Shown: positions 376 through 30,404 of the stretch, one piece after another
Position numbering within the stretch: position 1 is the stretch's first letter
Layout of the letters: every line of letters starts with the position of its first letter
Assembly (NCBI RefSeq): GCF_000327385.1
Contig: NW_008709540.1
Span: 1-39,237, forward strand
Source of the DNA: Lottia gigantea
Lineage: Eukaryota
Direction: 5' to 3'
DNA: 39,237 nucleotides
Translations under genes and position numbers: made by a program
The notes under the pieces: generated by a model
What the model saw: the letters and a program-made list of their open reading frames with translations, nothing else
The model's database searches: none
Told to the model about the DNA's origin: nothing

Positions 376-2034
376 CCCTTTTTGTGGGTCCAAAACGTTT
401 TTGCTCAAATTTGTGAAAACTATAAATGTAGAGAAATGTGTCCCTTAACGTATCTGAGACTTGTAATTAAAAAAAAATGTTAACGCCAAAACTATTCAAA
501 AACGTAAGTTTACGTTAACTTTAAAAGTTGGTTATGCTGTTTGGAAGCTATTACAAAACTGCTGTACGGATTGGAGTAAAATAAACTCCTAGTTGTAGAG
601 AAATATGTCTCCTACTTATTCCTAAGATTTCAACTAAAAATATCAGGTCATAAAAAAGCCAAGCCAATGTTTCACAAAAAAATGGAATGTCCCTTCAAAT
701 CGTATTCCATATTTTTTCATTTCACAAGAACGAAGTAGAAATGTCATGGTGTTATTCTGTATAACCTATTAACATGTTTGATTAATTAACAGTGTAATTG
801 ATTAGGCCCTGGGTGTTTACAGTCTTTATTTTACCTCATGACGTATATAGATTGATATACACTCCCACTTACAGATATACAAACACGTGCACAAAAACTA
901 ACCTGTACTCAATATTCAAATACATACAAAATTATGAATACACTTTGAGGTATTGTCACCAGTTGCGTATGGTTGCAAATAATGAAAGTAATCAAGAGTA
1001 CAGTGGAAAGGGGGGTGGGGCGAGCACGGGCCAGTGGCGTTTTTAGAAAACATCAGATGATGGGGGGGGGGGGGAGGGGGACGGCGAGCAGGGGCCAGAA
1101 GATTTTCCAGGGCCGAGGTGTGAGGTTCGAGGTTTTGTATAATAAAACCACTTCCCGATTGACATGGAAAATCCCAAGCAGGCTTTTTTTTCAGGCAATT
1201 TATTAAAAATATTTCGAATTATAAGTTTAATCGTTTGGCAAGTAAATGTATATTTAGAACACTATATCCCTTTATTCTGTCCCAAGGCCATTCCTTGAGT
1301 CTTAATCCAGAAACTTTATTCAATGACAGCTTAACTCTGTTACTGGGTTTGTTATCTCGAAAGGGTATTGCCTACGTAAGTATAGGGTATGTTTTTCCCT
1401 GCCGGAACACCCGAAGCCAATGCGTTACTGGATCTATCAACTCGGTATCCCTTTTAGATGGTTTACATATATTGCGTTACTTTAATTTTGTATCATATTT
1501 TAGATACTTTATTGACGGTAAGTATTTTACTTGAAAAGAGCGACCTCTACATTAATTAAAAGGGATAATCTCAATAAAAATTGGTAATGTTTTTAAACTT
1601 AGAAATATCTTGAGGCCAAGTTCATCTTAAATTTAATCTATTTTAACTCACGATTTTGTGATTTTGTCGACCAATCCATCATTCTCTCTCATTTCAAACG
1701 CTCTGAGGATAAAAAATCAGAATTCAATCTTTCTCACAAGGTGTTGATAAGCGTGATTAAAGGTTCGTATATTTTATTGTGGTGTGATTCCTTAGTTTAA
1801 ATTCTTTAGGGATCGTATCAAAATGATGTTATTAACTATGTGACTCTCTGAAAGGGATATTGCTTTGACAAACCAAGATGGAAATAAACATTATGTACCA
1901 ATTACACTGACTGGGATATAGCCTAATAGCATTGGTTATCGGTCTCCGCCACCACGATTAGATAATTTAATGGATCTGTAGATGTTGTGATAAGAATACT
2001 GGTTTTGGTGGGCACATGTCAATTTTATATGAAA

Positions 2035-3370
2035 TGTGATATGAATAATAGTTTGATTGGTATATATCTGTTTTCTTCTTGTGATATGAATAATAATTTT
2101 CATAGGTGTATATCTGTTTTCTTCTTGTGATATGAATAAAAGTTTTGATAGGTATGTGTCAGTTTTCTCCTTGTGATATGAATAAAAGTTTTGATAGGTA
2201 TGTGTCAGTTTTCTCCTTGTGATATGAATAAAAGTTTTGATAGGTGTATATCTGTTTTCTCCTTGTGATATGAATAAAAGTTTTGATAGGTATATATCTG
2301 TTTTCTCCTTGTGATACGAATAAAAGTTTTGATAGGTATATATCTGCTTTCTCCTTGTGATATGAATAATAGTTTTGATAGGTATATACCTGTTTTCTCC
2401 TTGTGATATTAATAAAAGTTTTGATAGGTATATATCTGTTTTCTCCTTGTGATATGAATAAAAGTTTTGATAGGTATATAACTGTTTTCTCCTTGTGATA
2501 TGAATAAAAGTTTTGATAGGTATATATCAGTTTTCTCCTTGTGATATGAATAATAGTTTTGATTGGTGTATATCTGTTTTATCCTTGTGATATGAATACT
2601 AGTTTTGATAGGTATATGTCAGTTTTCTCCTTGTGATATGAATAATAGTTTTGATAGGTATATGTCGGTTTTCTCCTTGTGATATGAATAACAGTTTTGA
2701 TAGGTATATAACTGTTTTCTCCTTGTGATATGAATAATAGTTTTGATAGGTATATGTCGGTTTTCTCCTTGTGATATGAATAATAGTTTTGATAGGTATA
2801 TGTCAGTTTTCTCCTTGTGAATATGAATAAAAGTTTTGATAGGTATATATCAGTTTTCTCCTTGTGATATGAATAATAGTTTTGATAGGTATATGTCAGT
2901 TTTCTCCTTGTGAATATGAATAAAAGTTTTGATAGGTATATAACTGTTTTCTCCTTGTGATATGAATAATAGTTTTGATAGGTATATGTCAGTTTTCTCC
3001 TTGTGAATATGAATAAAAGTTTTGATAGGTATATGTCAGTTTTCTCCTTGTGATATGAATAATAGTTTTGATAGGTATATGTCAGTTTTCTCCTTGTGAT
3101 ATGAATAACAGTTTTGATAGGTATATATCTGTTTTCTCCTTGTGATATGAATAATAATTTTGATAGGTATATAACTGTTTTCACCTTGTGATATGAATAA
3201 TAATTTTGATAGGTATATAACTGTTTTCTCCTTGTGATATGAATAATAGTTTTGATAGGTATATGTCAGTTTTCTCCTTGTGAATATGAATAAAGTTTTG
3301 ATAGTGTATATCTGTTTTCTCCTTGTGATATGAATAACAGTTTTGATAGGTATATAACTGTTTTCACCTG
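2035..3370. repeat. Minisatellite, about 59-60 bp unit x about 22 (ttgtgatatgaataatagttttgataggtatatgtcagttttctcc)
   Basis: Tandem period about 60 bp visible by eye. ORF 2579-3184(-) is a repeat artifact (protein is itself perfectly periodic). Confidence 0.9.
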
Positions 3371-3537
3371 GTCAATTGAAGAGTAGTTGTGACAGGCATT
3401 TGTTTCTTATTGAGATTTTGAATGATTTGTCAAAATGGCTTCATAAGACACCAATTGCCGACATTTTCAAAATAATCATTGCCAAATTTTTAGACCTTTC
3501 GCCTCTTTTTTTGTAGAACAACACCCGACAAGCAGTC

Positions 3538-4439
3538 ATGATGGCGATAACTTTAATAACTATATTATGTCTGATTGCCGGCACAGATGCACAAATTATG
3601 CCGGGAATGGGAATGCCCGGAATGCAAATGGGAATGCCTGGAATGCAAATGGGAATGCCCGGAATGCCGCCAAATAGAATGACTGGAATGCCCAATGGAA
3701 TGCCCAATGGAATGCCAAATGGAATGCCAAATGGAATGCCAAATGGAATGTCAAATGGAATGCCCAATGGAATGCCGAATGCAATAGAATACCGGGAATG
3801 TCAAATGGAATGCCAAATGGGATGCCAAATGGGATGCCAAATGGAATGCCAGGTATGCCAAATGGAATGCCTGGTATGCCAAATGGAATGACAGGTATGC
3901 CAAATGGAATGCCAGGTATGTCAATTGGAATGCCAGGAATGCCAAACGGAATGCCAGGTATGCCAAATGGAATGCCAGGAATGCAACTTGGTATGCAAAA
4001 TAGAATGTTCGGATCATCCGGGGGAATGCCTGGAGGAATTCCAAGATTTCCAGGTGGATTTCCCGGATTATCAGGGGGTATGCCAGGATTATCAGGGGGT
4101 ATGCCAGGATTATCAGGGGGTATGCCTTTTGGATTTCCTGGATTGAGGAGTGGAATTCCCGGTGGTTTCCCCGGAATGAACATGATAAATAACCCTATGT
4201 TACAGGCCAGATTACAATTGATGAATAATGGTCAACCAAATCAGCAGTCATCCTCTGATAATGCCAACAATAGCGGGTCTTCAAACAATGATTCCAATAA
4301 TAGGAACGCTAATATCAATCCGTTTGCTAACATTGGTATGAGTATGTTCAACAGGCAATCTCCTTTCGCTATGCTGGGAGGAAGATCGCCATTTGGAGGA
4401 TCACCATTTGGAGGACGATTCCCATTCACAATGGGCTAA
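3538..4439 (+). CDS. Secreted Met/Pro/Gly-rich low-complexity repeat protein (signal peptide [19 protein letters not shown]; MPGM/MPNG repeats; non-repetitive N/S/Q-rich C-terminal tail); reading frame interrupted near 3781-3797
   Basis: ORF 3538-3891 starts with a hydrophobic signal peptide followed by MPGM/MPNGM repeats. The same repeats continue in ORF 3798-4439 in another frame, which ends in a 90-aa non-repetitive tail. The aberrant 16-17 nt segment gcaatagaataccggg at about 3781-3797 breaks the repeat and the frame. It is a paralog of the 16637 gene by signal peptide and composition. Confidence 0.6.
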
Positions 4440-7060: not shown

Positions 7061-7112
7061 TTAACCTGCTTGGTGTGATAAAGACTATTCCTGATTTTAA
7101 ACTAAAATTATC

Positions 7113-8750
7113 ATGGAAAAACTAGATAAAACATGTAGTATTTGTTTACATGATCGTAAACAACCTAAAATATTGACATGTTTACATGTTTATTGTTGTC
7201 AATGTTTACTTGATTACGTCAACAAATCTCTCAAAGACGGACAATTTCCGTGTCCTCTATCTCGTGAACAAATTCAACTTCCTTCTGGTGGAGTCAGGAA
7301 TTTCAGGATTTTCCTGAAGGTGATGGAAGTGATGACGAAATAGATACAGAAACTGATGACGTGTCAAATATGAATGACGTAGCATCTCCAGCAGCAGAAT
7401 TAGGTCTCTGTGGCGTATGTGAAAGTCAAACTAGTGTAAAATATCGATGTAAAGATTGTAAACAGAGTATTTGTGAGAACTGTAAGATAGGTCATCGCAA
7501 AATTCCTGTCACTAAAAATCACGTGATTATTGATTTTGTTGATGGAATTGAAGAAGAAATTTGGGAACCCAGTAACCATGGCAACCAGAGTCCTGTAGAC
7601 CCGTGTCCTGTACATACATATAAAAACTGATTGAAATTTATTGTGTGGAATGTAAAACCTGTGTTTGTTTACAATGTTATGTTGATGAGAGTAATAGAGG
7701 TGTTCACAATGGACACCGGATATTGAATTTAGACAATAAAGATACCCAAACCAAGTTACGAGATAATTTAAAATGTTTAAATACTAATTTACAGGCTCAG
7801 ATCGACCGTTTACAGACATTTTCAGATCACCTGACATCTAAACTAAACCGAGTGAGATTGATATTTGTAGTGAGGAAGCGTGTAACAAGGTGGATCAACA
7901 AGTCCAGCTCATTTCTAAATTGGTCCAATCTCGAGCTGAACAAATTAAAACTCAAATCAACAATACTCGACACGAGGAAAGAAACAAGTTGGAAATTTTG
8001 AGAAAAGAAATGGAAATATCCATCACTGAACTAAAATCAGCCATTAAAGATTCTCTGATTACCCTAGAAGGAGAGTCGGTTGTTAAAATTGTAGAAAGAA
8101 ATGAGAGAAATAGAAATGATGAAATGAAAGTTAAACAGAAAGATTTGGTCGTTCCTGATTTACAATTTCCGAGTTTTCTTATTGGAAGTGACGTCAGAGA
8201 TGAGGTCGGGAGATTGGTTGGCGAATGCAAAAATTTCAAACAACCAAATTTTACACTGGAATATAACATAAATACAATTTCTTGTAGCTTTGTAAAAAGG
8301 TATTTTAATTTTGGTGAATTTAAATGGTATGTGAAGGTACGCTGTAATAATGATGTTGAAACTCTGGTGTGGTGTCTATCTTTGTTTATCTGAGACAAGT
8401 GTCAATGAGACAAGAGACAATGAGACAATGAGACAAGCGACAATGAGACAAGCGACAATGAGACAAGCGACAATGAGACAAGTGTCAATGAGACAAGAGA
8501 CAATGAGACAAGCGACAATGAGACAAGAGACAAGAAGAAAGTAAAAGTTATATCTGGTTTTACTATTCTAAATAAAGTCGCAGGAGAATCTCGATCTCGA
8601 CTTCCATCCTCTGATGAGTTTGAAGCAGGTGGTCCTGGGTATGGCTATAACAATTTTATTAATCTCAAAGAATTAAAAAATCCCGAAAATGGTTTTGTGG
8701 ACAAAGATGGTCATTTTTCTATCAGAATTTTAATACAACAACCCTAAGGA
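7113..8750 (+). pseudogene. Pseudogene copy of the RING/B-box/coiled-coil/MATH (TRIM37-like) gene: at least 4 frameshifts, RING Cys to Ser (PLSRE vs PLCRV), minisatellite inserted in the MATH region
   Basis: ORF fragments 7113-7343, 7361-7630, 7645-8001 and 7890-8393, plus a MATH tail through 8750 (…GYGYNNFINLKELKNPENGFVDKDGHFSIRILIQQP*). They align collinearly with the 509-aa intact ORF at 10826-12355(-) but in shifting frames. The upstream 30 bp (tattcctgattttaaactaaaatt) is also shared. Confidence 0.8.
8391..8540. repeat. 15-bp minisatellite (caatgagacaagcga) x about 10 inserted within the pseudogene MATH-domain region
   Basis: Direct reading of tandem gacaatgagacaagc units. The intact paralog has unique coding sequence (ADCKDDGRLSMYMFLIKSKTEKEM) at this position. 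Confidence 0.85.
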
Positions 8751-10825: not shown

Positions 10826-12355
10826 TTACACTTGTTGAATTGATAGTCTAATAGAAAAATTCCCATCTTTGTCTACGAATCCATCGTCAGGATTTTTCAA
10901 TTCTTTGATATTAATTAAGTTGCTACGGCCGCATCCATGACCTTTTCTGGTGGAAAATTCTTCAGTATTAAAGTTTTTTGAACGAGATTTACTTTCGACT
11001 TTATTGAGAATTGTAAAACTGTATTTAATTTTTACTTTCATCTCTTTTTCTGTCTTCGATTTGATCAAAAACATATACATACTAAGACGGCCATCATCTT
11101 TACAGTCTGCAGACAAACACCAAACCAAATCCACAAAATCAAACAATTCAATTTTACTATCTAAAGATCCTCGGGAAATAGTTTTTGTATTAAATTTTAG
11201 TGTAAAGTTTTGTAGTTTTAAATTTTTACATTCGCCAACCAATCTCCCGACCTCATCTCTGACGTCACTTCCAGGAAGAAAACTCGGAAATTGTAAATCA
11301 GGAACGACCAAATCTTTCTGTTTAACTTTCATTTCATCATTTCTATTTCTCTCATTTCTTTCTACAATTTTAACAACCGACTCTCCTTCTAGGGTAATCA
11401 GAGAATCTTTAATGGCTGATTTTAGTTCAGTGATGGACATTTCCATTTCTTTTCTCAAAATTTCCAACTTGTTTCTTTCCTCGTGTCGAGTATTGTTGAT
11501 TTGAGTTTTAATTTGTTCAGCTCGAGATTGGACCAATTTAGAAATGAGCTGGACTTGTTGATCCACCTTGTTACACGCCTCCTCACTACAAATATCAATC
11601 TCACTCAGTTTAGATGTCAGGTGATCTGAAAATTTCTGTAAACGGTCGATCTGAGCCTGTAAATTAGTATTTAAACATTTTAAATTTTCTCGTAACTTGG
11701 TTTGGGTATCTTTATTGTCTAAATTCAATATCCGGTGTCCATTGTGAACACCTCTATTACTCTCATCAACATAACATTGTAAACAAACACAGGTTTTACA
11801 TCCCACACAATAAATTTCAATCAGTTTAGATGTATGTACAGGACACGGGTCTACAGGACTCTGGTTACCATGGTTACTGTGTTCCGATATTTCTTCTTCT
11901 TCAATTCCATCAACAAAATCAATGATCACGTGATTTTTAGTGACAGGAATTTTGCTGTGAATTTTTTTACACGAGTCACAAATATTCTGTTTACAATCTT
12001 TACATCGATAATTTACACTAGTTTGACTTTCACACACGTCACAGAGACCTAATTCTGCTGCTGGAGATGCTACGTCATTCATATTTGATAGGTCATCAGT
12101 TTCTGTAATAGCGTCCACTACGTCATCAACCCCACTGACGTCATCACCTTCAGATAAATTCTTAAATTCCTCGACTCCACCTGAAGGAAGTTGAATTTGT
12201 ACACGACATAAAGGACACGGAAATTGTCCGTCTTTGAGAGATTTGTTGACGTAATCAAGTAAACATTGACAACAATAAACATGTAAACATGTCAATATTT
12301 TAGGTTGTTTACGATCATGTAAACAAATACTACACGTTTTATCTAGTTTTTCCAT
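10826..12355 (-). CDS. Intronless E3 ubiquitin ligase-like protein: RING (C3HC4) - B-box1 - B-box2 - coiled coil - MATH/TRAF domain (TRIM37-like / TRAF-like), 509 aa
   Basis: Uninterrupted 509-aa ORF. RING: CSICLHDRKQPKILTCLHVYCCQCLLDYVNKSLKDGQFPCPLC. B-box-like: CDVCESQTSVNYRCKDCKQNICDSCKKIH and CPVHTSKLIEIYCVGCKTCVCLQCYVDESNRGVHNGH. Heptad-rich middle region. C-terminal MATH-like region (…SIRLSIQQV). Start ATG in aaaattgccATGG context. Confidence 0.85.
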   Translation of the reverse strand: MEKLDKTCSICLHDRKQPKILTCLHVYCCQCLLDYVNKSLKDGQFPCPLCRVQIQLPSGGVEEFKNLSEGDDVSGVDDVVDAITETDDLSNMNDVASPAAELGLCDVCESQTSVNYRCKDCKQNICDSCKKIHSKIPVTKNHVIIDFVDGIEEEEISEHSNHGNQSPVDPCPVHTSKLIEIYCVGCKTCVCLQCYVDESNRGVHNGHRILNLDNKDTQTKLRENLKCLNTNLQAQIDRLQKFSDHLTSKLSEIDICSEEACNKVDQQVQLISKLVQSRAEQIKTQINNTRHEERNKLEILRKEMEMSITELKSAIKDSLITLEGESVVKIVERNERNRNDEMKVKQKDLVVPDLQFPSFLPGSDVRDEVGRLVGECKNLKLQNFTLKFNTKTISRGSLDSKIELFDFVDLVWCLSADCKDDGRLSMYMFLIKSKTEKEMKVKIKYSFTILNKVESKSRSKNFNTEEFSTRKGHGCGRSNLINIKELKNPDDGFVDKDGNFSIRLSIQQV

Positions 12356-14614
12356 GGCAATTTTAGTTTAAAATCAGGAATATTTAGTCTTTTTCACACT
12401 TAGAAGTATCTTAGTTGTGTACAGGTTAATTTTTCTCCAATTTCAACTTCTATAATCCTATTACTACTTTCAGTTTCTCTTTTATCCATGTGTTTATAAT
12501 GGGGAATAACTCTATTTATCATCCTAATAGTTTTCAGACCACAAATTAAGAGTACATTAAATTCACAATAAAATGAAGTTTTTCGTCCTATTTTCTGCAC
12601 CCTTTGGGCTAATGAAAACGGATACCTCCATACAGTGGGCAGTGAGGGTAATCTTGCTAGGACAGTGACATTATCGAGGGATCTAGTCGCTTTTTCTCAG
12701 TCCCTCTGACCTGCATCACTGACAAGGAGGAAATAGGGTAGAAAATTAGGAAGGTATATCTTGACCTATGTCGGGATTGAACTACTAAATTCACCATATA
12801 GGCCAACTAGCCCTATACTGTCCGCTTACTACACTTTACCTCCCATACGCCTACTTCGGTCATATGATATTAGTTCTATTTTGATAGAACGCATGTCCAA
12901 ACCTAGATTATTTTTCAATCCGAAATGTCGTCTGCTTGTGAGACAGTCAAATAGAGCTGTGGAATTTAATCTGTGAAATAAATTTTGACTTGGCCTGATT
13001 TTGATGAGGGTAATTTAGATATATACCAGTAAAATATACAAGTTCTTGTCGTTTCTTATAGGTAAAGAATTTAGAATTTTACTCGGTTGAAATGCAAAGT
13101 GAATGTGAAATCGTTTAGGATATTTCCAAATCATGAATCCATTATTTGTTATGTTATGAAATTGAAATATATCCCGTTACTCTGAGTTTAATATTAAATA
13201 TAAAGTTAAATAATGAACAATATAAAAAGTTAAGGTTAAGTAATTGATAAAAATTAAATATTAATTGAAGTAATAAATAGAACAATAGAGATGAATTCAA
13301 TATAAAACACATAACAATATGGTTAAATAAATAAAGATACAAAAAAGGTTAAATAAAAAATAATTCAAACCTCTGCAGAGGTGTAATTCTATTTTTTCGT
13401 ATTCTCTTCCATATTATCAACAAAAAAAAACTCCCCTGTCTTCTTCTACAGAAATTCTGAAATTCACAATAGAACTTCCACTGAAATTGTATAGCAACAA
13501 CTTTGCTCTAGGGTATATTATTGGAATTAGTGACGCCTTGGCATCCCTCCCCGTTTCTCTATTAGGGCATATAGACTTTAAAAAAAACATTTCTGACGAC
13601 CCCCGTCCCACTCAAAAAAAAAACCATTCCGACACACACTGAAATTCACAACTCTTTACCCATCCTTGCTTCTGTATTAGGGCATCATTTTTTTTGCCCC
13701 CACCCCAATCCCTTTGATTACTAGTATGTTCGATGGCTCATGCCTCACGCCATTTTATGAGATAGTCGAGGAAAACAGGTGTTTATCTAAGAACGTATTC
13801 AGATGTATTTTTCTTTCTTCTAAAATATTTCATGCTCTTAACCTCTTTTTTCTAAATCGTCCAAAGAATTTCAATCTTTGACGTTGTGCCTCCAAAATTG
13901 ACACACAAATTATAAAAAGAGTAAAAAAAGATATCGAAGAAAATCGACTTCCTGGTGAATTGTGTAATGTTGAATAATTTTGATATTGATTAAAATAAAA
14001 CCAATTAGCTGATTAGACTAAGATAATTAATTTAAATCTTTAAACCCATACACTTTCTGTAATTACCAATCAGACCATCTAGATATTCCGAAACACTCTG
14101 CTTTCAACTAAAAACACATTAAATACCGTTTAACTTGAAAAACACTGTGTTGGTGGTTTCTGTTATAGAACGACTGTTAATTCGTCAGTGGTTCATTTTT
14201 ACAATTTTCAATAAGTTTATATAAGAACCTCTTCTTCTTCCTCTTCCCTTTCTTCTTCTTCTACCATTTATTTCACGCATTAAATGCAAAAAGTTTGTGG
14301 TTTTTGCAATGTAACTGTTTGAAACATGAAATTAATTTGGCATAGTTCGAAGTAAGGTTGTTATATATGTATGAATAGATGAAATCGAGAAATTCTCGGC
14401 AAATTTTCTACTCCAGATTAAGATTTAGATATTAATCTCATTCAACGTTATGCAGTGTACAATGATAGCAATTTCGCAAGAAAATGGCGAGTATCTTTTA
14501 TGTTCACGGGAAGCATGTGGTATTTTGCTTTCGTATCCGAATATCTAGATGTCGAGACATGCATCAACGACAGAGGAAACCCGAAACTACTATTCCATGA
14601 GGAACTCCTGGTGT

Positions 14615-15042: not shown

Positions 15043-15645
15043 ATTTTAACAGTGGTATTTCTATATTGCTCTGCTATTGATGTATTGTGCACTATTTTAA
15101 CAGTGGTATTTCTATATCGCTATACAATTAATGTATTGAGCACTATTTTAACAGTGGTATTTCTATATTGCTCTGCAATTGATGTATTGTGCACTATTTT
15201 AACAGTAATATTTCTATATCACTCTACAATTGATGTATTGAGCACTATTTTAACAGTGGTATTTCTTTATGACTCTACAATTGATGTATTGAGAACTATT
15301 TTAACAGTGGTATTTCTATATTGCTTTACAATTGATGTATTGAGCACTATTTTAACAGTGGTCTTTCTATATTGCTCTACAATTGATGTATTGAGCACTA
15401 TTTTAACAGTGGTATTTCTTTATGACTCTACAATTGATGTATTGAGAACTATTTTAACAGTGGTATTTCTATATTGCTTTACAATTGATGTATTGAGCAC
15501 TATTTTAACAGTGGTCTTTCTATATTGCTCTACAATTGATGTATTGAGCACTATTTTAACAGTGGTATTTCTATATCACTCTACAATTGATGTATTGAGC
15601 ACTATTTTAACAGTTAAAATATTGTATTTTCGTATTATATATATA
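15043..15645. repeat. Minisatellite, 60-bp unit x 10 (ttttaacagtggtatttctatattgctctacaattgatgtattgagcactat)
   Basis: Exact 60-bp period (unit starts 15043, 15103, …). ORF 15052-15732 is periodic and artifactual. Confidence 0.9.
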
Positions 15646-15780
15646 TATTTATCCATGAAAATGCTTATATATCTGCAAGTAATAACATCGGAGAAAGTCA
15701 GTTTTGAATGCAACGAATTAAAAGCATTTTAGGAAGTCACATTTCTTTTCACTTTCAGTAAAGTAATCTCAAAATTCATA

Positions 15781-16636: not shown

Positions 16637-17302
16637 ATGTTGTCATTTGTTGCTCAAATCGTATGCCTTCTCGTCGGTTCCATGACCGTCCACGCCCAGT
16701 TTATGGGCATGGGCGGAATGGGCATGGGAGGCATGGGAATGGGAGGCATGGGAATGGGCGGCATGGGAATGCCAGGAATGGGTATGGGCGGTATGGGAAT
16801 GCCAGGAATGGGCATGGGCATGGACATGGACTTTGGAAATGACTTTGGAATGATGAACCCATTTGGTGGAATGGGTGGATTTGGTGGAATGGGTGGATTT
16901 GGTGGAATGAGCGGATTTGGTGGAATGGGCGGATTTGGCGGCATGGGAGGATTTGGCGGCATGGGAGGATTTGGCGGCATGGGAGGATTTGGCGGTATGG
17001 GAGGATTTGGCGGTATGGGTGGCATGGGCGGTATGGGCGGCATGGGCGGTTTTGGAGGCATGGGTGGCATGGGAATGGGTGGTATGCAAGGACTCCCTGG
17101 ATTTGGAATGGGTGCTGCTGGAATCGGAATGCCTTCTATGCCAGGGATGCCACCTATGCCAGGAATGTCAGCTATGTCAGGGATGTCAGCTATGCCAGGA
17201 ATGTCAGCTATGCCAGGGATGTCAGCTATGCCAGGAATGCCATCTATGCCAGGGATGTCAGCTATGCAAGGAATGATGGGAAATAGTGCTCCAGCAGTGT
17301 AA
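16637..17302 (+). CDS. Secreted Met/Gly-rich low-complexity repeat protein, 221 aa (signal peptide MLSFVAQIVCLLVGSMTVHAQ; GMGGMGM, GFGGMGG and MPGMSAM repeat blocks)
   Basis: Complete ORF with a hydrophobic signal peptide and a single frame through three distinct repeat types. TATA box upstream; AATAAA at 17357-17362, 55 nt after the stop. Paralogous to the 3538 gene ([14 protein letters not shown] vs VHAQFMGMGGMGM). Antisense ORFs 16643-17089 and 16654-17070 are artifacts. Confidence 0.75.
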   Translation: MLSFVAQIVCLLVGSMTVHAQFMGMGGMGMGGMGMGGMGMGGMGMPGMGMGGMGMPGMGMGMDMDFGNDFGMMNPFGGMGGFGGMGGFGGMSGFGGMGGFGGMGGFGGMGGFGGMGGFGGMGGFGGMGGMGGMGGMGGFGGMGGMGMGGMQGLPGFGMGAAGIGMPSMPGMPPMPGMSAMSGMSAMPGMSAMPGMSAMPGMPSMPGMSAMQGMMGNSAPAV

Positions 17303-17929: not shown

Positions 17930-18755
17930 TAGTGATAGCTTCACTAGACAGGGTTACATGAGCACGTTTAGTAGCTTCTCTAGACAAGGTTATATGGGCA
18001 CGTATAGTAGCTTCACTAGAGAAGGTTACATGAGCACGTTTAGTAGCTTCACTAGACAAGGTTACATGAGCATGTTTAGTAGCTTCACTAGACAAGGTTA
18101 CATGAGCATGTTTAGTAGCTTCACTAGACAAGGTTACATGAGCATGTTTAGTAGCTTCACTAGACATGGTTACATGAGCATGTTTAGTAGCTTCACTAGA
18201 CAAGGTTACATGAGCACGTATAGTAGCTTCACTAGACAGGGTTACATGAGCATGTTTAGTAGCTTCACTAGACAAGGTTACATGAGCATGTTTAGTAGCT
18301 TCACTAGACAAGGTTACATGAGCATGTTTAGTAGCTTCACTAGACAAGGTTACATTGAGCATGTTTAGTAGCTTCACTAGACAGGGTTACATGAGCATGT
18401 TTAGTAGCTTCACTAGACAAGGTTACATGAGCATGTTTAGTAGCTTCACTAGACAAGGTTACATGAGCATGTATAGTAGCTTCACTAGACAAGGTTACAT
18501 GAGCATGTTTAGTAGCTTCACTAGACAAGGTTACATGAGCATGTTTAGTAGCTTCACTAGACAGGGTTACATGAGCATGTTTAATAGCTTCACTATACAA
18601 GGTTACATGAGCATGTTTAGTAGCTTCACTAGACAAGGTTATATGAGCATGTTTAGTAGCTTCACTAGACAGGGTTACATGAGCATGTTTAGTAGCTTCT
18701 CTTGACAAGGTTACATGAGCATGTTTAGTAGCTTCACTAGAATCTCACGTGAAAA
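17930..18755. repeat. 36-bp minisatellite x about 23 (ttcactagacaaggttacatgagcatgtttagtagc)
   Basis: Exact 36-bp period. All six frames are open, so ORFs 17721-18368(+), 18355-18705(+), 17892-18377(-) and 18340-18708(-) are not evidence of coding. There is a 1-bp indel at about 18350. Confidence 0.85.
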
Positions 18756-19833: not shown

Positions 19834-20355
19834 TTACACCACTGCAGCGTCCCCTCGTAACACTTTATCTGTCAAATCCACAAAACCAGGTTTAGGCATT
19901 ACCAAATCAGGAAACGCATCATTTGCGTTTGGCACTGGTATATTGGGGAAAGTGTTCGGTGGTCCAGGGTTAGGTGAACCAATCGGAGCATTTAATATTC
20001 CTATTCGATTGCCATTAGGTGGAGACATTACGTTTTGATTGTTCTCGAAAGTGTTGGGAAGCAAATCGCTGGTGGTCCCTCGATTGTCCCACGGATCTGA
20101 CCACCTTTGATCAAATCCAGAATTAAATTGATTCATCATGTTGTATCCAAATCTATTTCTCGGTCGAGCACCGAATCCCATACCAAATAATCCATAACCG
20201 TAAGGGGCATATAACGGTCTTACTACTACGGGCATGACAGGAATCACATGCGTTACGGGTATGACGGGTGACAATACCACACCGTGCCAAACTCCACCGT
20301 TGACGGACGCGATGAGACACACAACACACGAGACAGTCAATAAATTTCCAATCAT
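19834..20355 (-). CDS. Small secreted Pro/Asn/Gly-rich protein, about 173 aa (signal peptide MIGNLLTVSCVVCLIASVNG); coding exon preceded by a 5'UTR intron acceptor
   Basis: ORF on the minus strand. The 225-aa ORF listed extends further upstream, but the hydrophobic signal peptide starts at Met53 (ATG at 20353-20355). Immediately upstream, on the gene's own (minus) strand, gtttttttttgcag|gtcgaagtacaagaagaatATG is a polypyrimidine tract plus cag acceptor. Confidence 0.5.
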   Translation of the reverse strand: MIGNLLTVSCVVCLIASVNGGVWHGVVLSPVIPVTHVIPVMPVVVRPLYAPYGYGLFGMGFGARPRNRFGYNMMNQFNSGFDQRWSDPWDNRGTTSDLLPNTFENNQNVMSPPNGNRIGILNAPIGSPNPGPPNTFPNIPVPNANDAFPDLVMPKPGFVDLTDKVLRGDAAVV

Positions 20356-21469
20356 ATTCTTCTTGTACTTCGACCTGCAAAAAAAAACAAACAAGAATAA
20401 TAACAAAATGTGGGAAGAGAACGGAATGAAAGGAACCTTTTCAAGAATAGAATACAAGCTGTTTTTGAAAAGATGAATGCAAGAAAGATGATTCAAAAAT
20501 GATTTTGACAAAATGAATCCTAGATAGTAAATTTATAGAAGTCAACGCCAACAACAAATGTTTTAAAACTAACACCCAATTTTACGCCAGCTGTATTTCA
20601 ATGACTTGGTTCATTTTGTGTCAGCCAGAACTAACTTTGAAAGATGCCGGACAAATCAGAAATTTCGCCCATAGATAAACTAATTATCAGCCAATTTGGA
20701 CAATTATTAGACAAATTCTAAATTTTTACCTGAGATGAAAGCTTTGTTTCTGCTACTGCACTACACACAGTGTGAGTGAACTTCATTCACCTTGCGGCCA
20801 GTCATAAACACTCTGATCATTAACCCGTGAACTTTCTTAAATACTTCCGCTCTTTAACCCTCTTCCTCATTCTGTCATTAGAAAACTTGTACGGCCTCGG
20901 GTAACTGGGCTGACTAGACGATATCAGTTTCACTGGGGTTGAATCATACTAACGCACCCTTATCATATTAAAGGTGGTGTGGGTGGATTTGGGGGCTGCT
21001 CTGGGGTCAAAATAAAAATAATTGTGTGAGGATTATGTCCTCCGGTTCTGTACCCTTATTGATCCAATGAAAGAATTAGGGATTTATGTCCTAATATTCT
21101 ACACCATATGAGTGAAGGCGTAAATTCGCTAATGTACTGTTCTACATATTTTTAGTATCGAAAGAAATTGAGCTTTGCGTCATATTGTGCCTCTATTTAA
21201 TCATTTTCAATATGAACCAAGAGTGGGATTTACTTATATTATGGATTATAAAATTCTATATATTTATACTAAACGAACTAATAAATTTGAAGAACATTTT
21301 CGGTGATGTCAAAATTATGGAATCATTTTTTAACAAAGTAATCGAAACCTTATCCTGTTATTTGTAAAAAAGAATTATCAATGATATTGACGTAACCAAA
21401 ATATTACTTCTGAACCCTATTGGGTAGATAAAATCAAATGGAACCAGTGCTATGCCCTTCTGTTATTTT

Positions 21470-21800: not shown

Positions 21801-22899
21801 GTCAGAGAATTTTCTAACTGGTTGACATCTATCAAAAACTACGCTTAAAAGATTTAAATGTTGATTGGGCGGATATATTTCAATTGATGAGTCAATTAAG
21901 GATCAATCGGATGACGTCATCCGGATGTATTAGATAATTATTAATTACTATTTAATTAAGCAATTTGTTATTTTATGTACAATCCAACTACCAACTACTA
22001 CGACTACCAACTACTACCTAGTTTGCGATATCAGCATCCGCTGGAAGCGAACGTTAACTTGCCATCTACCAACCAACCTATTTATGTGCGATATCTTAGA
22101 ACCTACAAAACGAAATGCAACTTTTCACCTTAAACAATGTCTTCTACTGAAAGTTTTACTTTGTAACCTAAGCCCGTGATTCAGTGACAAGAGTCGTAAC
22201 ATCTCCATAAAAGCAAAATGAAGTGCACCAAGCAAATAATTTTTTTATTAGAAACGTGCCTTGGGAACGTAAAATGGTAGCACATGTCGCAGGTTGTAGA
22301 ATATCGAATTTCAACTTTTTCTTTTATTTTCTTCACGTTTGCCATCAAGTAGAATTTTAGTCGCCATAAAGATCGCAAATGAACTCAGTCTGGTGTTTTT
22401 CTAAAATCACTCTTAATCCAATTCATACAAAATAATCGATGAAAGAACAGTAAATATGGGAATTTGCACGGTTGTCGTGGTAGCGGTTCCAACATTGTAC
22501 ACTGCATGGGGAAGAAGGATTTAGTAGCCTGGTAAGGGGCTGACAATCCGGAGAACAAATACAAATTGAAATCAAGTGTATTTATTAAAACTAGAATATT
22601 CTACATGTGTTATAGAGTTTATTTATCTGGAATCATCAGGGTTATCTATCTCACGACTTTCATCTGGTTTCTCTGTAATATAAAGTTCAAAGGAGTATGG
22701 GTTTGGGTGATTTAACTCTCCCTATCATTGACCTTAAACTTCAACTACGAGACCCTGTATACCAGGACAGAGGCAGTTGCCTGTTTGTTTTCGATTTCTA
22801 ACTGTCGAGTGGTCCATGAAGACTCGGTCTTTCCTGAAACCTAAATATCGTATTAAGAGTATCATTTCGATATATGACTGCATCTAATACCTTGACATC

Positions 22900-23085
22900 A
22901 TTAGGCAATTTTCTTCTATCATGGAATGCAATAATTCGATTGGATTGTACGATATCGAATACAGCTAATCGATATCCTCGACTTACGGTCTGTAAACAAT
23001 AATCGTATACATTATTATTTTCTGTATACAAGCTGTATTTACTGGCGTACAATCAAGTCAAATCACTTCATTTACAAACTTCGGT
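22900..23085. mobile_element. MITE family 1 fragment (gcaataattcgattggattgtacgatatcgaatacagctaatcg … gtctgtaaacaataatcg)
   Basis: Shares the gattggattgtac…aatacagc(c/t)aatc…gtctgtaaacaataa(g/t)c core with 16296-16565, 26196-26485 and 35100-35215. Confidence 0.45.
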
Positions 23086-23168
23086 CATACAAAAAAAGTG
23101 CCCTAGTGTCAAGGCATAAGATGCAGTAATAGTTTGACATAATGAAGATGCTCCACCATAGTTATCAA

Positions 23169-25102
23169 TTAAAGTAGAGCTACTAACCAACATTTTAGGA
23201 AGTCGTGGAAGAAATCTCGACCCCTCTGTAGAACTCTCTGTATATATTCACCAGTTATAGAACCACATTCTTCGGATGTTACTGCTATAGCACATTCAGA
23301 TAGTTCATCTAGATCTCTACAATTACATTTAAACTTTACAATAATACTTCAGATTTCAGAGCTACAAGAATGGACCCTGTAAAGATCCACAGACAGTTAA
23401 AATCGACAAATAGAGAGCTTATGCCACCGTTCTAGTAAATTACTCTTATTGCACACTGCCCTGGCAACATTTTCCCCGCCACCATCATTTACAGAAAAAT
23501 ATAAATAGGACGCAAAACACCATACGTTCAATGAACGTGTTACCCAGTACGGACTGTAAGAACGGAATCAATCATACTAACATACTATGGAGGCAGATTT
23601 AAAGTTGTAAATTGTTTCATGTTATGTATTGTAATTGATATCATTTAGTGTAGAAGATAAATATTGTTTAAAACATACTTACGAACATGTTGCGTCAGGG
23701 GCTAGATTGTGACAAACACCCATACGATACTGCCAGTAGGAATTAGACCAACAATCATAATGAGCTAAAAACTCTGAAAAAACAACGTGATTTGTCGAAA
23801 CGTTGTGAACTATGAAACCCAGAAGCAGTATGCCAAATAACAACAATGTACTTTTTTAAACGTTGTGCGCCATTAAACCAAGGAGTAGTATACAATATAA
23901 ACTGATGATGACAATGTAAATTGTTGAAGCGTTGTCTACAATAAAAACCAGAAGTAATATACACATTGTAGAAACGTTATACTTGGGTTATCTTTAACAT
24001 CTGAAATAAACTGTCTACGAATTATTCTTACCTTTATATCCGTCATGACAAATGTACTGTAAAAGAGCTTGAAATGTTCCGGCTGATGCATAAACCTCGG
24101 TACCATCACATTGATCTCTGAGGTTGTTTATACATGGAATAGCGTCGTTAGAAATACTACAAACACACAAATAGATTATTAAAAAAGGTAAGAGGTGATG
24201 GTGGGGCTGTGAGTACCTGTCACAAATCTGACATCATTTGACATGGGGCCCTGGAAAGATACCAGGGTTTATTGTGTTCTAGGCGAGGGTAATTAATATA
24301 CTCTTCAAAACGCTTCTAAAATAAAACTATGTATTATAACCAAAGCAATTGTCTTATTACAATAAAAGGGGTTAATAACAGTAATTCAAGGCCTGTCCAT
24401 ATCTCCAGTACAATTAGTAATGTAATAATTGTGAAGCCAATTTAAATAAAAGTCTCTTACCTACAAATTATTTGGAATTTTTTATGTAGAGGATCAATAT
24501 CTGCAGGGAATAATGGAGGCCGAGTGTGCTCAATATAATCTGTACAATTCCGTACTGGACAATTCACCCCGTTCTCGTCTCTTTTAAATACTCCAAAAAC
24601 ACTGGCTTCTGTCAAATATATAAAGTTGATTGTATGCGATCTTATTGAACGACCTGTGGAGTGGCATCACACGATATGATTCGAGTTTCGGTTCCAAAGT
24701 AGGCCGTCGTCACGTCCGGGGCTTAATTAACATACTAACGGAGAGTTAAAACGCCACAAGATAGTAAATAACTGTAAATAGTCCTAAAATTGACAAAAGT
24801 TGGTTTTAGCTAATGAGCTACATAAATAATTGACATAACAAAGGCACGTGGACCATTGTTTGAGTAACAATATTCCCCTCTAAACCGACATCTGACCGGT
24901 TTACTGGAGTTAATTCTATCGATATAAGGAAATATATATAAAGAAACGATTTCATTCTTTATGTGATCCAAATCGGCGAACATGTCATAAAAACTGCATA
25001 TATAATAATATGAACTGATCTATATGTAAAACCATAAAACTTACCCATTGTCGTCACCAAACATAAAACTGAAAAAAACAGGGAAATACTGTGACTAAAC
25101 AT
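23169..25102 (-). CDS. Five-exon gene encoding a secreted Cys-rich protein, 186 aa (MFSHSISLFFSVLCLVTTMG|EASVFGVFKRDENGVNCPVRNCTDYIEHTRPPLFPADIDPLHKKFQIICR|SISNDAIPCINNLRDQCDGTEVYASAGTFQALLQYICHDGYK|AHYDCWSNSYWQYRMGVCHNLAPDATC|SDLDELSECAIAVTSEECGSITGEYIQRVLQRGRDFFHDFLKCWLVALL*)
   Basis: Exons on the minus strand: 25045-25102 (ATG, donor gtaagt), 24461-24608 (acceptor tttgacag, donor gtaaga), 24032-24156 (acceptor ttgtag, donor gtaaga), 23683-23764 (acceptor tttttag, donor gtaagt), 23169-23316 (acceptor aattgtag, stop TAA). Exon lengths are 58/148/125/82/148 nt. Phases are mutually consistent (1,2,1,2) and no alternative frame is open. Family not recognised. Confidence 0.6.
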
Positions 25103-26195
25103 CTTGAAGATGGCGGTGATTCACTGCTGGCTGGTCAAGTACTCGGGTTTCTCGAGATACTCGGTGGGGTTCGTTTGCTGTTATGGTACAAGGTTCCTAC
25201 ACGGTAAATGATCCCTTAACGCTGATTCTTGTTGTGCTGAATCTAGTAAGGTATAGAAGCTGGATCTCTTCAGGTTAACGGTGTCGTCTTATGATTACCT
25301 TGGATTTCTACTAACAAGGCACTGACGGTTAAGGAATATGTTCTTCACGTTGAAGTATCAAGAGTTAATTGCCTTGAAGTCCACCACTGGATCCGATGAG
25401 TGCGTGACGGTACGCGATCTACAGAATATGTTTATATAAGATCTGATGTCGGTAGAGTTTTATACACTGTACACCAATTATATAACCACCAACAAAAGGT
25501 TAGATTCGAATCTTCATGAAGGCTTATCACAGACGTCATATTGGGCCTCTTCCTCCGTTGTTTTTTCTCATTCAAAGTTCACCTCAAATTACTTCCGATA
25601 AAGAGAGTCTTCTGGTACGTAACGATGGTACAGTACAGTACGAACATACGACAGGAATCTGGATAGTTCTGCTAGTCAAGCTGGTGTCTTCTAGCAAATA
25701 CAGCCACTCTCAACTGAAAGACTAAAAAAAACTGTCGAACTGGACAAGATTTGTCGGCACTCCCTTCGTAAACATGGCCAAGAGTTGATGACTAGTTTGG
25801 CTTTACGTAGGGCATCATGGCATCATTAATGCGTCGGCCTTATTGAATCCAGAATGAGACTCATAACGCAAACCTTGGAAAGGTAACATTATGTCACTGC
25901 ATAAAATCGCCACCATGACGTCTTTAAAGCCTCCTTCTCCAATCCCACTAAGTCGAAACTGATCATGTTTTACATCATTAATATTGGAATTGATTAAGCT
26001 ATTTAATTAGATGAAGTTTACCTTCACACATTTCCAAGAAATTTTCTTGTTGTTTAGCAAGTGTTTAATGACGTCAAATTGACTAAGGTTTATTGTTAAC
26101 CCAGACCGGCATCTAGGGTCTTTTCATGAGAGATCCTCACAGTGTGTACATGATTTGACTCTTTACAAGTTTCATCTCGTTAACACCTTAATACA

Positions 26196-29387: not shown

Positions 29388-30404
29388 TCAAGGATGAAAT
29401 AAATCCCTGATCATATCAACTCGTCCATCCGACTCGATATAACCACGTCGTAGATTTCTCTCCGTATAGCGAGTCGGAGATCTGTAGCGTACACGCCGTG
29501 GACTCGGAGCTAGTCGTGTTGTTCGGACATAGTTGGCATACATCCGAGGTGGTTGTGGCGTTAGAGGTACTTCTTCTACGACTAATGGCGACGGACTCCG
29601 ACGTACCACAACGCGTTCTCTGATCGGAGCAAGTGGTAAAGGCGGAGACGGACTTAGTCGCATCACTGGAGAGGAACTACGGTACACTCGATGATAATTG
29701 GACGCTCTAGACAAATTGACAGATCCAAAAGTTTCACTGAGTCCAGTCAGGGGACGAGGAAATCCAATACCCCGACGCACTGGCATGGGCAGATGATGAA
29801 AACGCGGTCGGATTACTGGAGGTAATTGTTCTACGGACACACCGTTACGAATGATCGGCGTTGCGTACAGATGATAACGTCCATCATTGACAACGATTTT
29901 CACATCCGTCCTTGGATACACACCGTACGTTTCACGCAACTCTGACCGTAGATTAACTGGTAGCGTGTCAAACTGCCCGATGTATTCGTTCGTTGGAATG
30001 AAATCCCCGTAGACCAGTGTTCCGTCAATGGTATACGACCCGCCTTGGAGCACAGCTGGAGAGCTTTCAATCCGTACTTGGCTGGCCGCAGCAATCGGAG
30101 GCAGGACTGGCATGGATTTATAGGGTGGAGGATATTTTCCGACCATCGAGTGATAAACGTTTGGTGCGTACGGTGGTGGGTTATAGTGTCCTATAACAGG
30201 CTGACTGTCAAAACCTACAGCATCTGCTACTGGGGTGGAGTAGTAGTCTCCGAACGGTAACATACCCTCATGGTGGTAGGTCATCTGGGAGGCAGTGACG
30301 GGATCTAAGGGTGTTACATACGATGCAGCCCCACCCACGCCTTCCCCATAATGCTGTTGATAAACCGGTTGAAGTTCAGGCGGGAGGAGAGAATTGTAGG
30401 CCAT
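29388..30404 (-). CDS. Single-exon ORF, 338 aa, Pro/Tyr/Arg-rich protein with two PPPY (WW-binding type) motifs; function unknown
   Basis: Long ORF in a locally GC-rich (about 50%) island within 65% AT surroundings. Start in aaaATGG context. Non-repetitive sequence. No recognisable domain. Confidence 0.5.
   Translation of the reverse strand: MAYNSLLPPELQPVYQQHYGEGVGGAASYVTPLDPVTASQMTYHHEGMLPFGDYYSTPVADAVGFDSQPVIGHYNPPPYAPNVYHSMVGKYPPPYKSMPVLPPIAAASQVRIESSPAVLQGGSYTIDGTLVYGDFIPTNEYIGQFDTLPVNLRSELRETYGVYPRTDVKIVVNDGRYHLYATPIIRNGVSVEQLPPVIRPRFHHLPMPVRRGIGFPRPLTGLSETFGSVNLSRASNYHRVYRSSSPVMRLSPSPPLPLAPIRERVVVRRSPSPLVVEEVPLTPQPPRMYANYVRTTRLAPSPRRVRYRSPTRYTERNLRRGYIESDGRVDMIRDLFHP

What the first reader, a model, noticed from the sequence alone, without database searches (positions are those of the whole stretch)
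23169..25102. Cleanly reconstructable five-exon gene for a small secreted 12-Cys protein of unrecognised family
All five exons have canonical splice sites with fully consistent phases and no competing open frame. Exon 1 encodes only the signal peptide (MFSHSISLFFSVLCLVTTMG). The mature 166-aa protein has 12 cysteines with spacing I do not recognise as lectin, EGF, Kazal, WAP or other common folds (…NCPVRNC…IIC…PC…QC…YIC…YDC…GVC…ATC…SEC…EEC…KC…). It is a candidate novel secreted effector or matrix component.
Basis: partly seen in the sequence, partly recalled or inferred. Interest (0 to 1): 0.55.

Follow-up and report, generated by a model that had tools for sequence, protein, structure and literature searches.

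The report
Limpet secreted DUF19-like 12-cysteine protein gene
This is a real five-exon limpet (Lottia gigantea) gene for a small secreted, disulfide-rich helical protein, but it is already in the databases (LOTGIDRAFT_164163) and belongs with the known but functionally obscure DUF19/CPG4 group, so it is ordinary apart from a small gene-model correction.

Summary
The five-exon minus-strand gene at 23169-25102 is there as described. All four introns are GT..AG, the phases are 1,2,1,2, and the CDS is 570 nt. It encodes 189 aa (not 186), with a hydrophobic N-terminus and 12 Cys in the mature part. The window is Lottia gigantea. The locus is already annotated as LOTGIDRAFT_164163 (XP_009058920.1, UniProt V4A0N5), which UniRef names "DUF19 domain-containing protein".

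The family is therefore not unrecognised. Exhaustive search finds relatives only in gastropods: Patella (E=1.7e-7), a Lottia paralogue on the same scaffold, Batillaria, and a two-domain membrane-anchored transcript. Eleven of the 12 mature Cys, plus Tyr103 and Gly108, are invariant in the whole-protein alignment. Members repeatedly give sub-threshold Pfam hits to CPG4 (PF15481) and DUF19 (PF01579); three map the second Cys to the same CPG4 profile position. AlphaFold2 predicts an all-helical domain, and no solved structure matches it.

The deposited model drops the signal peptide and uses a 3-nt micro-exon that removes the conserved 12th Cys.

Function is unknown, as for DUF19 generally. The protein is not in the Lottia shell-matrix proteome. 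No transcript evidence could be obtained. Interest is low.

The parts
25045..25102 (-). Exon 1. ATG at 25102-25100, the first ATG after an in-frame stop, with A at -3. Encodes aa 1-19 (MFSHSISLFFSVLCLVTTM) plus the first base of codon 20. This is the signal-peptide exon.
   Evidence: Kyte-Doolittle maximum 2.8 at aa 6-16. N-terminal hydrophobic segments of P0002 and P0003 align with it. The deposited model uses the same donor but starts at the internal ATG, M19.
24461..24608 (-). Exon 2, aa 20-68. Contains the conserved dibasic KR (aa 28-29), Cys36, Cys41 and Cys68, and the only N-x-T sequon (N40).
   Evidence: The open frame has no ATG upstream of the acceptor, so this exon needs exon 1.
24032..24156 (-). 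Exon 3, aa 69-110. Contains Cys77, Cys85 and Cys105, and the invariant Y-x-C-x-x-G motif (Y103, C105, G108).
   Evidence: invariant columns.
23683..23773 (-). Exon 4, aa 111-140. Contains Cys118, Cys131 and Cys140.
   Evidence: The C105-C118 spacing (12 residues) is identical in Patella P0002.
23169..23316 (-). Exon 5, aa 141-189 plus the TAA stop (23171-23169). Contains Cys149, Cys158 and Cys183, and the tail C-W-L-V-A-L-L.
   Evidence: Cys183 is invariant in alignment A1 and conserved in 5 of 6 rows of A2. The tail pattern C-x-[LI]-x-x-x-L is shared with Patella (RCGLGFRL) and Batillaria (GCDIKLRL).
22987..22989 (-). 3-nt 'ACC' flanked by TTGTTTACAG and GTAAGT. The deposited model uses it as a micro-exon. 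It is probably not coding.
   Evidence: Exact reconstruction of P0001 needs this micro-exon. That route deletes the conserved 12th Cys.
22581..22672 (-). Terminal exon of the deposited model (22672-22623, 'QKPDESREIDNPDDSR*'), plus the only canonical AATAAA signals downstream of the gene (22623-22618 and 22586-22581). This is the likely 3'-UTR end of the transcript.

Best explanation
This is the Lottia gigantea gene LOTGIDRAFT_164163. It encodes a 189-aa precursor of a small secreted protein.

Exon 1 supplies an N-terminal signal peptide that takes the chain into the ER. The remaining ~165 residues form one compact all-alpha domain. Its 12 cysteines presumably form six disulfides.

The domain is a divergent gastropod branch of the DUF19 (T20D4.11-like) / CPG4 group of 12-Cys extracellular domains. 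That group is best known from the large secreted DUF19 family of nematodes. The protein most likely acts outside the cell as a stable, non-enzymatic binding or scaffold module. Its ligand is unknown.

Shown here:
- exon structure
- identity with the deposited locus
- homologues and the conserved Cys framework
- sub-threshold but mutually consistent Pfam similarity
- predicted helical fold

Inferred:
- signal-peptide cleavage
- disulfide formation
- secretion
- the extracellular binding role

The correct C-terminus is most likely the read-through ...DFLKCWLVALL*. It is probably not the deposited micro-exon version.
For: Identity:
- 100% identity over aa 19-182 to LOTGIDRAFT_164163 / XP_009058920.1 / V4A0N5, named 'DUF19 domain-containing protein'.

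Homologues, from an exhaustive phmmer search of 1.84 billion representatives:
- Patella caerulea KAK6177863: E=1.7e-7, aa 14-185
- Lottia paralogue LOTGIDRAFT_164331
- Batillaria KAK7494679
- a two-domain transcript with a C-terminal TM helix

Conservation:
- C41, C68, C77, C85, C105, C118, C131, C140, C149 and C158, plus Y103 and G108, are invariant in both alignments.
- C183 is invariant in A1. It is conserved in 5 of the 6 rows of A2.

Pfam:
- This protein: CPG4 E=0.0015, DUF19 E=0.11.
- Patella: CPG4 3e-4, DUF19 8.3e-4.
- Batillaria: DUF19 1.3e-3.
- Lottia paralogue: CPG4 0.019.
- Three proteins map the homologous second Cys to CPG4 profile position 6. I derived this from the coordinates and alignment A2.

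Architecture matches DUF19 as described for C. elegans:
- 140-220 aa secreted proteins, 42 of 51 with a signal peptide (PMC3534327)
- 'Cys-rich secreted protein' (PMC3527274)

Fold:
- AF2 gives all-alpha, pTM 0.63, pLDDT 70-91 over aa 60-180.

Extracellular use of the domain:
- P0005 carries two copies N-terminal to a TM helix.
Against: - This protein's own scores are below Pfam's gathering cut-offs: CPG4 19.5 vs 32.7 bits, DUF19 12.7 vs 23.2 bits.
- Cys-rich sequences are prone to spurious cross-hits.
- No direct profile-profile or fold comparison with a bona fide nematode DUF19 protein could be run. The AFDB libraries were unavailable.
- No transcript evidence. None of seven isoform variants exists as an exact sequence among 15 billion proteins, and the 90% cluster of P0001 has one member.
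- The alignment used for the structure is only 6 sequences deep.
Confidence: 0.8

Rival explanations
1. The deposited JGI/NCBI model is the true product. It is 181 aa, starts at Met19, has no signal peptide, splices after Lys182 through a 3-nt micro-exon into a terminal exon, and ends ...FLKYQKPDESREIDNPDDSR.
For: - It is the model on record, and I could rebuild it exactly from the window.
- The 3-nt ACC has unusually good flanking splice signals.
- The only AATAAA signals lie in or after that terminal exon.
Against: - It removes Cys183, which is invariant in A1 and conserved in 5 of 6 rows of A2. That would leave an odd number (11) of Cys in the domain.
- It uses a weak donor (AAAT|GTTGGT).
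- Its acidic tail has no counterpart in any homologue. The read-through tail does match C-x-[LI]-x-x-x-L in Patella and Batillaria.
- It ignores the upstream in-frame ATG and an 18-residue hydrophobic leader that aligns with the homologues' leaders.
Confidence: 0.08
2. This is a gastropod-specific 12-Cys family with no common ancestry with nematode DUF19/CPG4. On this reading the Pfam similarities are Cys-driven coincidences, and the reader's 'unrecognised family' stands.
For: - All Pfam scores are below the gathering thresholds.
- phmmer on 1.84 billion proteins found only five relatives, none from nematodes.
- The literature calls DUF19 worm-specific.
Against: - Four of five family members independently have CPG4 and/or DUF19 as their best Pfam hit out of 24,736 models, with E between 3e-4 and 0.019. 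Three map the second Cys to the same CPG4 profile position.
- The Cys count, domain length, secreted architecture and protein size range are the same as for DUF19.
- UniProt's pipeline independently named the Lottia and Patella proteins and an oyster protein (K1PB63) as DUF19.
Confidence: 0.12
3. The locus is a silent or decaying copy (pseudogene), not an expressed gene.
For: - No identical or >=90% identical transcript-derived protein exists in the 15-billion collection.
- No publication mentions it.
Against: - The ORF is intact across five exons with four canonical introns.
- Every framework Cys, Y103 and G108 is retained.
- The start context and signal peptide are good.
- There are no frameshifts or premature stops.
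Confidence: 0.07
4. It is a shell-matrix or mantle-secretome component, as the reader suggested and as the neighbouring Gly/Met-rich secreted ORFs might hint.
For: - The window holds signal-peptide ORFs rich in Gly/Met and Met/Pro/Asn (3538-4439, 16637-17302).
- Their composition resembles the shell proteins GMP_LOTGI and MRP_LOTGI.
Against: - JGI IDs 164163 and 164331 are absent from the Lottia shell-matrix proteome supplementary tables as held; one file was cut when stored.
- GMP and MRP themselves lie on other scaffolds.
- There is no acidic or low-complexity region and no SG glycosaminoglycan site.
Confidence: 0.05

Closest known systems
DUF19 / T20D4.11-like domain (Pfam PF01579), the nematode secreted Cys-rich family
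   Same: - Small protein (C. elegans members are 140-220 aa) made of a signal peptide plus one ~130-160-aa domain.
- Twelve framework cysteines. The Pfam description is from my own memory; the count is shown here.
- Relatives of this protein hit the HMM at E~1e-3 over nearly the full profile (Patella 7-143 of 157).
- UniProt already labels this protein DUF19.
- No known biochemical function in either case.
   Different: - This protein's own score (12.7 bits, E=0.11) is under the 23.2-bit cut-off.
- It is a gastropod protein, not a nematode one.
- It is not part of a large tandem expansion. There is no paralogue in the 39-kb window, and only one other Lottia relative was found, on the same 2.16-Mb scaffold. 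C. elegans has 51 to more than 80 copies.
CPG4 domain (Pfam PF15481), from the chondroitin proteoglycan 4 core protein of C. elegans
   Same: - It is the best Pfam hit for this protein: E=0.0015, aa 39-122 on profile positions 4-80 of 94.
- The Patella and Lottia paralogues also hit it, and all three place the second Cys at the same profile position.
- It covers the N-terminal two-thirds of the same Cys framework.
   Different: - The score (19.5 bits) is below the 32.7-bit cut-off.
- The protein has no Ser-Gly glycosaminoglycan attachment motif at all, so nothing suggests it is a proteoglycan core.
LOTGIDRAFT_164163 (XP_009058920.1 / V4A0N5_LOTGI), the existing annotation of this locus
   Same: It is identical over aa 19-182 and uses the same four internal splice junctions.
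   Different: - The deposited model lacks the 18 N-terminal signal-peptide residues.
- It replaces CWLVALL with YQKPDESREIDNPDDSR through a 3-nt micro-exon, which loses the 12th Cys.

Membership tests
DUF19 (PF01579) | Match to the Pfam HMM at or above the curated gathering score (23.2 bits) | tested here: not met
   - This protein: 12.7 bits, E=0.11, aa 60-173.
- Relatives come closer but are also below the cut-off: Patella 19.7 bits (E=8.3e-4) and Batillaria 19.0 bits (E=1.3e-3).
- I therefore file it as a distant, superfamily-level relative, not a strict Pfam member under the current HMM. UniRef does carry the DUF19 name.
DUF19 (PF01579) | Domain of roughly 130-160 residues with 12 conserved cysteines (Pfam description, recalled from memory) | tested here: met
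   - There are 12 Cys in the mature part: positions 36, 41, 68, 77, 85, 105, 118, 131, 140, 149, 158 and 183.
- Eleven are invariant across the five proteins of A1. Ten remain invariant in A2.
DUF19 (PF01579) | Small secreted protein: N-terminal signal peptide, 140-220 aa in total | tested here: met
   - The protein is 189 aa with a hydrophobic leader at aa 6-16.
- C. elegans family: size range 140-220 aa, 42 of 51 with a signal peptide (PMC3534327).
- No SignalP run was available.
DUF19 (PF01579) | Same three-dimensional fold and disulfide topology as bona fide nematode members | not testable with these tools
   - The AF2 model is all-alpha.
- The AlphaFold-database libraries were not installed.
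- The PDB holds no specific match.
CPG4 (PF15481) | Match to the Pfam HMM at or above the gathering score (32.7 bits) | tested here: not met
   - This protein: 19.5 bits, E=0.0015.
- Relatives: 21.7 and 15.9 bits.
CPG4 (PF15481) | Chondroitin proteoglycan core, with Ser-Gly glycosaminoglycan attachment sites | tested here: not met
   There is no SG dipeptide anywhere in the 189 aa.
Lottia shell-matrix proteins | Identified by mass spectrometry in shell extracts | tested here: not met
   IDs 164163 and 164331 are absent from the 5 supplementary files of PMC4094399 as held; one file was truncated when stored.

The most novel reading that the evidence does not exclude
The gastropod proteins (Lottia x2, Patella, Batillaria, plus a two-domain membrane-anchored form) may be a distinct, fast-evolving lophotrochozoan branch of the DUF19/CPG4 fold. 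The literature still treats that fold as nematode-specific. Sitting among genes for low-complexity secreted proteins, this gene could belong to a lineage-specific extracellular (mantle, mucus or immune) secretome. Such a branch would offer an out-group for working out what the enigmatic DUF19 domain does.
Probability: 0.15. Interest if true: 0.35.

Novelty: already known. Interest (0 to 1): 0.15.

Why it matters
It matters little beyond annotation. The locus and its family label already exist in public databases.

Two modest points have some value:
- The deposited gene model appears wrong at both ends. It is missing the signal peptide, and a 3-nt micro-exon removes a conserved cysteine. That would mislead secretome predictions for Lottia.
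- Papers still describe DUF19 as worm-specific, yet clearly related 12-Cys secreted proteins exist in gastropods. The domain is therefore probably an older protostome extracellular module of still unknown function.

Tried and rejected
- **PDB sequence searches.** A single-sequence search and a profile search gave only noise (E>0.4).
- **Word-indexed homology searches with alignment A2** (one search was an input error). They returned only the two Lottia proteins.
- **Genomic context of homologues.** The look-up of encoding contigs failed for P0001, P0002 and P0003. So intron-position conservation and transcript support could not be checked.
- **Exact-sequence look-up of seven N- and C-terminal isoform variants**: none is on record.
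- **Literature searches** for the locus tag or ID and for the CPG4 domain (swamped by 'CpG-4' methylation papers) found nothing.
- **Paralogue search in the window** by tblastn found none.
- **Sushi/CCP idea.** I first suspected this from the 'YICHDGY...C..W' stretch. I rejected it because Pfam gave no such hit and the predicted structure is all-helical.
- **GPI anchor.** The hydrophobic tail is only 6 residues (WLVALL), which I judge too short from general knowledge of GPI signals.
- **Weak similarities not over-read.** The NRN1/neuritin hits of the two P0005 domains (E=0.042) and the OSTM1 Foldseek hits (E~2.6) are not significant.

Full report
**1. Observation**

The gene lies on the minus strand. 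I translated the reverse complement of 23100-25200 in three frames and joined the open segments at GT..AG boundaries. This gives five exons:

| Exon | Coordinates | Length |
|---|---|---|
| E1 | 25102-25045 | 58 nt |
| E2 | 24608-24461 | 148 nt |
| E3 | 24156-24032 | 125 nt |
| E4 | 23773-23683 | 91 nt |
| E5 | 23316-23169 | 148 nt, ending in TAA |

- The donors are GTAAGT, GTAAGA, GTAAGA and GTAAGT, and all acceptors are ...AG.
- The intron phases are 1, 2, 1, 2.
- The CDS is 570 nt and encodes 189 aa.
- The ATG at 25102 is the first one after an in-frame stop.
- The product has 13 Cys. One is in the leader and 12 are in the mature part, at 36, 41, 68, 77, 85, 105, 118, 131, 140, 149, 158 and 183.

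There are three small errors. The length is 189 aa, not 186. The codon split by intron 1 is Glu, not Gly. A competing deposited model does exist (section 3).

**2. Source and existing annotation**

The first homology search returned one hit. It is 100% identical over aa 19-182. The hit is 'hypothetical protein LOTGIDRAFT_164163 [Lottia gigantea]', which UniRef names 'DUF19 domain-containing protein'. The accessions are ESO90242.1, XP_009058920.1 and V4A0N5_LOTGI, on a 2.16-Mb scaffold. So the window is owl-limpet genome. The gene is already annotated and carries a family label.

**3. Which gene model is right**

The deposited 181-aa protein starts at Met19 and ends ...DFLKYQKPDESREIDNPDDSR. 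I could rebuild it exactly from the window in only one way:
- the same four internal junctions;
- a weak donor after 23192 (AAAT|GTTGGT);
- a 3-nt micro-exon ACC at 22989-22987;
- a terminal exon at 22672-22623.

That route deletes Cys183.
- Cys183 is invariant in the whole-protein alignment A1 and conserved in 5 of the 6 rows of A2.
- The residues after it (C-W-L-V-A-L-L) follow the same C-x-[LI]-x-x-x-L pattern as Patella (RCGLGFRL) and Batillaria (GCDIKLRL).
- The 18 residues the deposited model omits form a typical hydrophobic leader. The Kyte-Doolittle maximum is 2.8 at aa 6-16, and the segment aligns with the leaders of the Patella and Lottia paralogues.

The only canonical AATAAA signals downstream are at 22623-22618 and 22586-22581. 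The transcript therefore probably runs to about 22560, either unspliced or with a 3'-UTR intron. If the better donor TG|GTTAGT (after 23188) joined the 22672 acceptor, the protein would end ...FLKC*. Only RNA data can settle this. No transcript-derived copy of any of seven isoform variants exists in the 15-billion-protein collection.

**4. Independent support for the exons**

An exhaustive phmmer scan of 1.84 billion cluster representatives found five proteins with E<=1e-3. They were identified:

| Protein | Source | Note |
|---|---|---|
| P0001 | Lottia gigantea | the deposited model itself |
| P0002 | Patella caerulea KAK6177863 | E=1.7e-7, aligned aa 14-185 |
| P0003 | Lottia LOTGIDRAFT_164331 | same scaffold |
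| P0004 | Batillaria attramentaria KAK7494679 | |
| P0005 | Logan transcript | two tandem copies of the domain, then a TM helix and a short tail |

- Pairwise BLASTP against the Patella protein gives 2e-16 over aa 58-185.
- Cys-to-Cys spacing is identical across junctions 2/3 (8 residues), 3/4 (12 residues) and 4/5 (8 residues).
- C41, C68, C77, C85, C105, C118, C131, C140, C149, C158, Y103 and G108 are invariant in both alignments.

The spliced reading frame is therefore not a chance construct.

**5. Family**

Pfam gives this protein only two hits:
- CPG4 (PF15481): E=0.0015, 19.5 bits, aa 39-122 on profile positions 4-80 of 94.
- DUF19 (PF01579): E=0.11, 12.7 bits.

Both are below the curated cut-offs. 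The relatives hit the same two families independently:
- Patella: CPG4 3e-4 and DUF19 8.3e-4, the latter over profile positions 7-143 of 157.
- Batillaria: DUF19 1.3e-3.
- Lottia paralogue: CPG4 0.019.

Using A2, the homologous second Cys (C41 here, C43 in Patella, C32 in the paralogue) maps to CPG4 profile position 6 in all three. That shared mapping argues against random Cys-driven matches.

The architecture fits what is reported for C. elegans DUF19:
- 51 genes, 42 with a signal peptide, 140-220 aa (PMC3534327).
- 'Cys-rich secreted protein' (PMC3527274).
- Twelve conserved Cys. This last point is from my memory of the Pfam description.

I conclude that the protein is a distant relative of the DUF19/CPG4 group. 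It is not an unrecognised fold. By the strict Pfam threshold, membership is not met with the current HMMs. UniProt also labels Patella proteins and an oyster protein (K1PB63) as DUF19, even though papers still call the domain worm-specific.

**6. Structure**

AlphaFold2 with the 6-row alignment predicts an all-helical domain:
- Helices at 38-47, 61-84, 88-105, 109-119, 122-132, 140-158 and 160-188.
- pTM 0.63 and mean pLDDT 65, with 70-91 over most of aa 60-180.

**7. Likely mode of action**

The inferred sequence of events is:
1. The leader directs ER import.
2. It is cleaved somewhere around aa 19-25.
3. Six disulfides lock a ~19-kDa acidic helical domain (pI ~4.9 for aa 23-189).
4. The protein is secreted.

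The protein has one N-x-T sequon (N40), no Ser-Gly glycosaminoglycan site, no low-complexity region and no catalytic motif. The existence of a membrane-anchored two-domain relative (P0005) shows that the domain is used extracellularly.

I therefore favour a non-enzymatic extracellular binding or scaffold role. The ligand is unknown. For DUF19 itself, the held literature offers two kinds of evidence:
- Stress- or infection-responsive expression (14 of 51 genes are infection-induced).
- Growth retardation when T20D4.11 is over-expressed, with no RNAi phenotypes across more than 80 paralogues (PMC8410859).

IDs 164163 and 164331 are absent from the Lottia shell-matrix proteome tables (PMC4094399).

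**8. Context**

- The window has no paralogue of the gene and no repeat overlapping it.
- Neighbours include an intronless TRIM-like RING/B-box/MATH gene with an inverted partial duplicate.
- There are also several signal-peptide ORFs of extreme Gly/Met or Met/Pro/Asn composition.
- These are recorded as side observations.

**9. Verdict**

- Novelty: already known as a locus and by its family label. The only gain is a corrected gene model.
- Interest: 0.15.

Noticed in passing
window 22987-22989 (-), with 23192 and 22672: A 3-nt 'ACC' sits between a strong acceptor (TTGTTTACAG) and a consensus donor (GTAAGT). The deposited NCBI/JGI model for this locus can only be reproduced by using it as a micro-exon. 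That removes a conserved Cys, so it looks like a gene-prediction artefact.
   Followed up: yes
window 7073-8281 (+) and 10826-12399 (-): There is an intronless 509-aa TRIM-like gene with RING, B-box and C-terminal MATH domains. A 93%-identical inverted partial copy, 1.2 kb long, lies about 3 kb away. The copy's reading frame is broken into 118- and 167-aa ORFs, so it is probably a pseudogene fragment.
   Followed up: partly
window 16637-17302 (+): A 221-aa ORF has a signal-peptide-like start and then almost pure Gly/Met repeats (GMGGMGMGG..., GFGGMGG..., PGMSAM...). Its composition resembles the major Lottia shell protein GMP_LOTGI, which maps to a different scaffold. The only Pfam hit is a weak one to Lamprin.
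   Followed up: partly
window 3538-4439 (+): Overlapping ORFs with a signal-peptide-like start encode Met/Pro/Asn/Gly repeats ([11 protein letters not shown]...). This is reminiscent of the Met-rich shell protein MRP_LOTGI, which lies on another scaffold. There is no Pfam hit.
   Followed up: partly
window 1985-3403 and 17936-18741: Two long tandem arrays: a ~46-bp satellite about 1.4 kb long at ~90% identity, and a 36-bp array about 0.8 kb long at ~95% identity. Both create long spurious ORFs on both strands. Another repeat-generated ORF lies at 15052-15732.
   Followed up: partly
window 23782-23960 (intron 3 of the gene): Intron 3 contains three degenerate direct repeats of about 50 nt, spaced 60 and 69 nt apart and 66-76% identical. 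Their significance is unknown.
   Followed up: partly
aa 27-29 of the product (window ~24586-24578, -): A dibasic motif just before the first Cys (FKR here, VKR in Patella, FRR in Batillaria) is conserved. It could be a proprotein-convertase site that removes a short propeptide. This was not tested.
   Followed up: no
window 19834-20511 (-) and 29388-30404 (-): Two long ORFs (225 and 338 aa) have no Pfam match. The first contains an internal Met followed by a signal-peptide-like stretch (MIGNLLTVSCVVCLIASVNG) and a Pro/Asn/Gly-rich body. The second is Pro/Arg/Ser-rich. Both are possibly further lineage-specific genes.
   Followed up: partly
L001 (Logan SRR27666067 transcript contig, 58-1215): A relative of the protein (P0005, 385 aa) carries two tandem copies of the 12-Cys domain, then a transmembrane helix and a short cytoplasmic tail. 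This is a membrane-anchored form of the domain. The source organism was not identified.
   Followed up: partly
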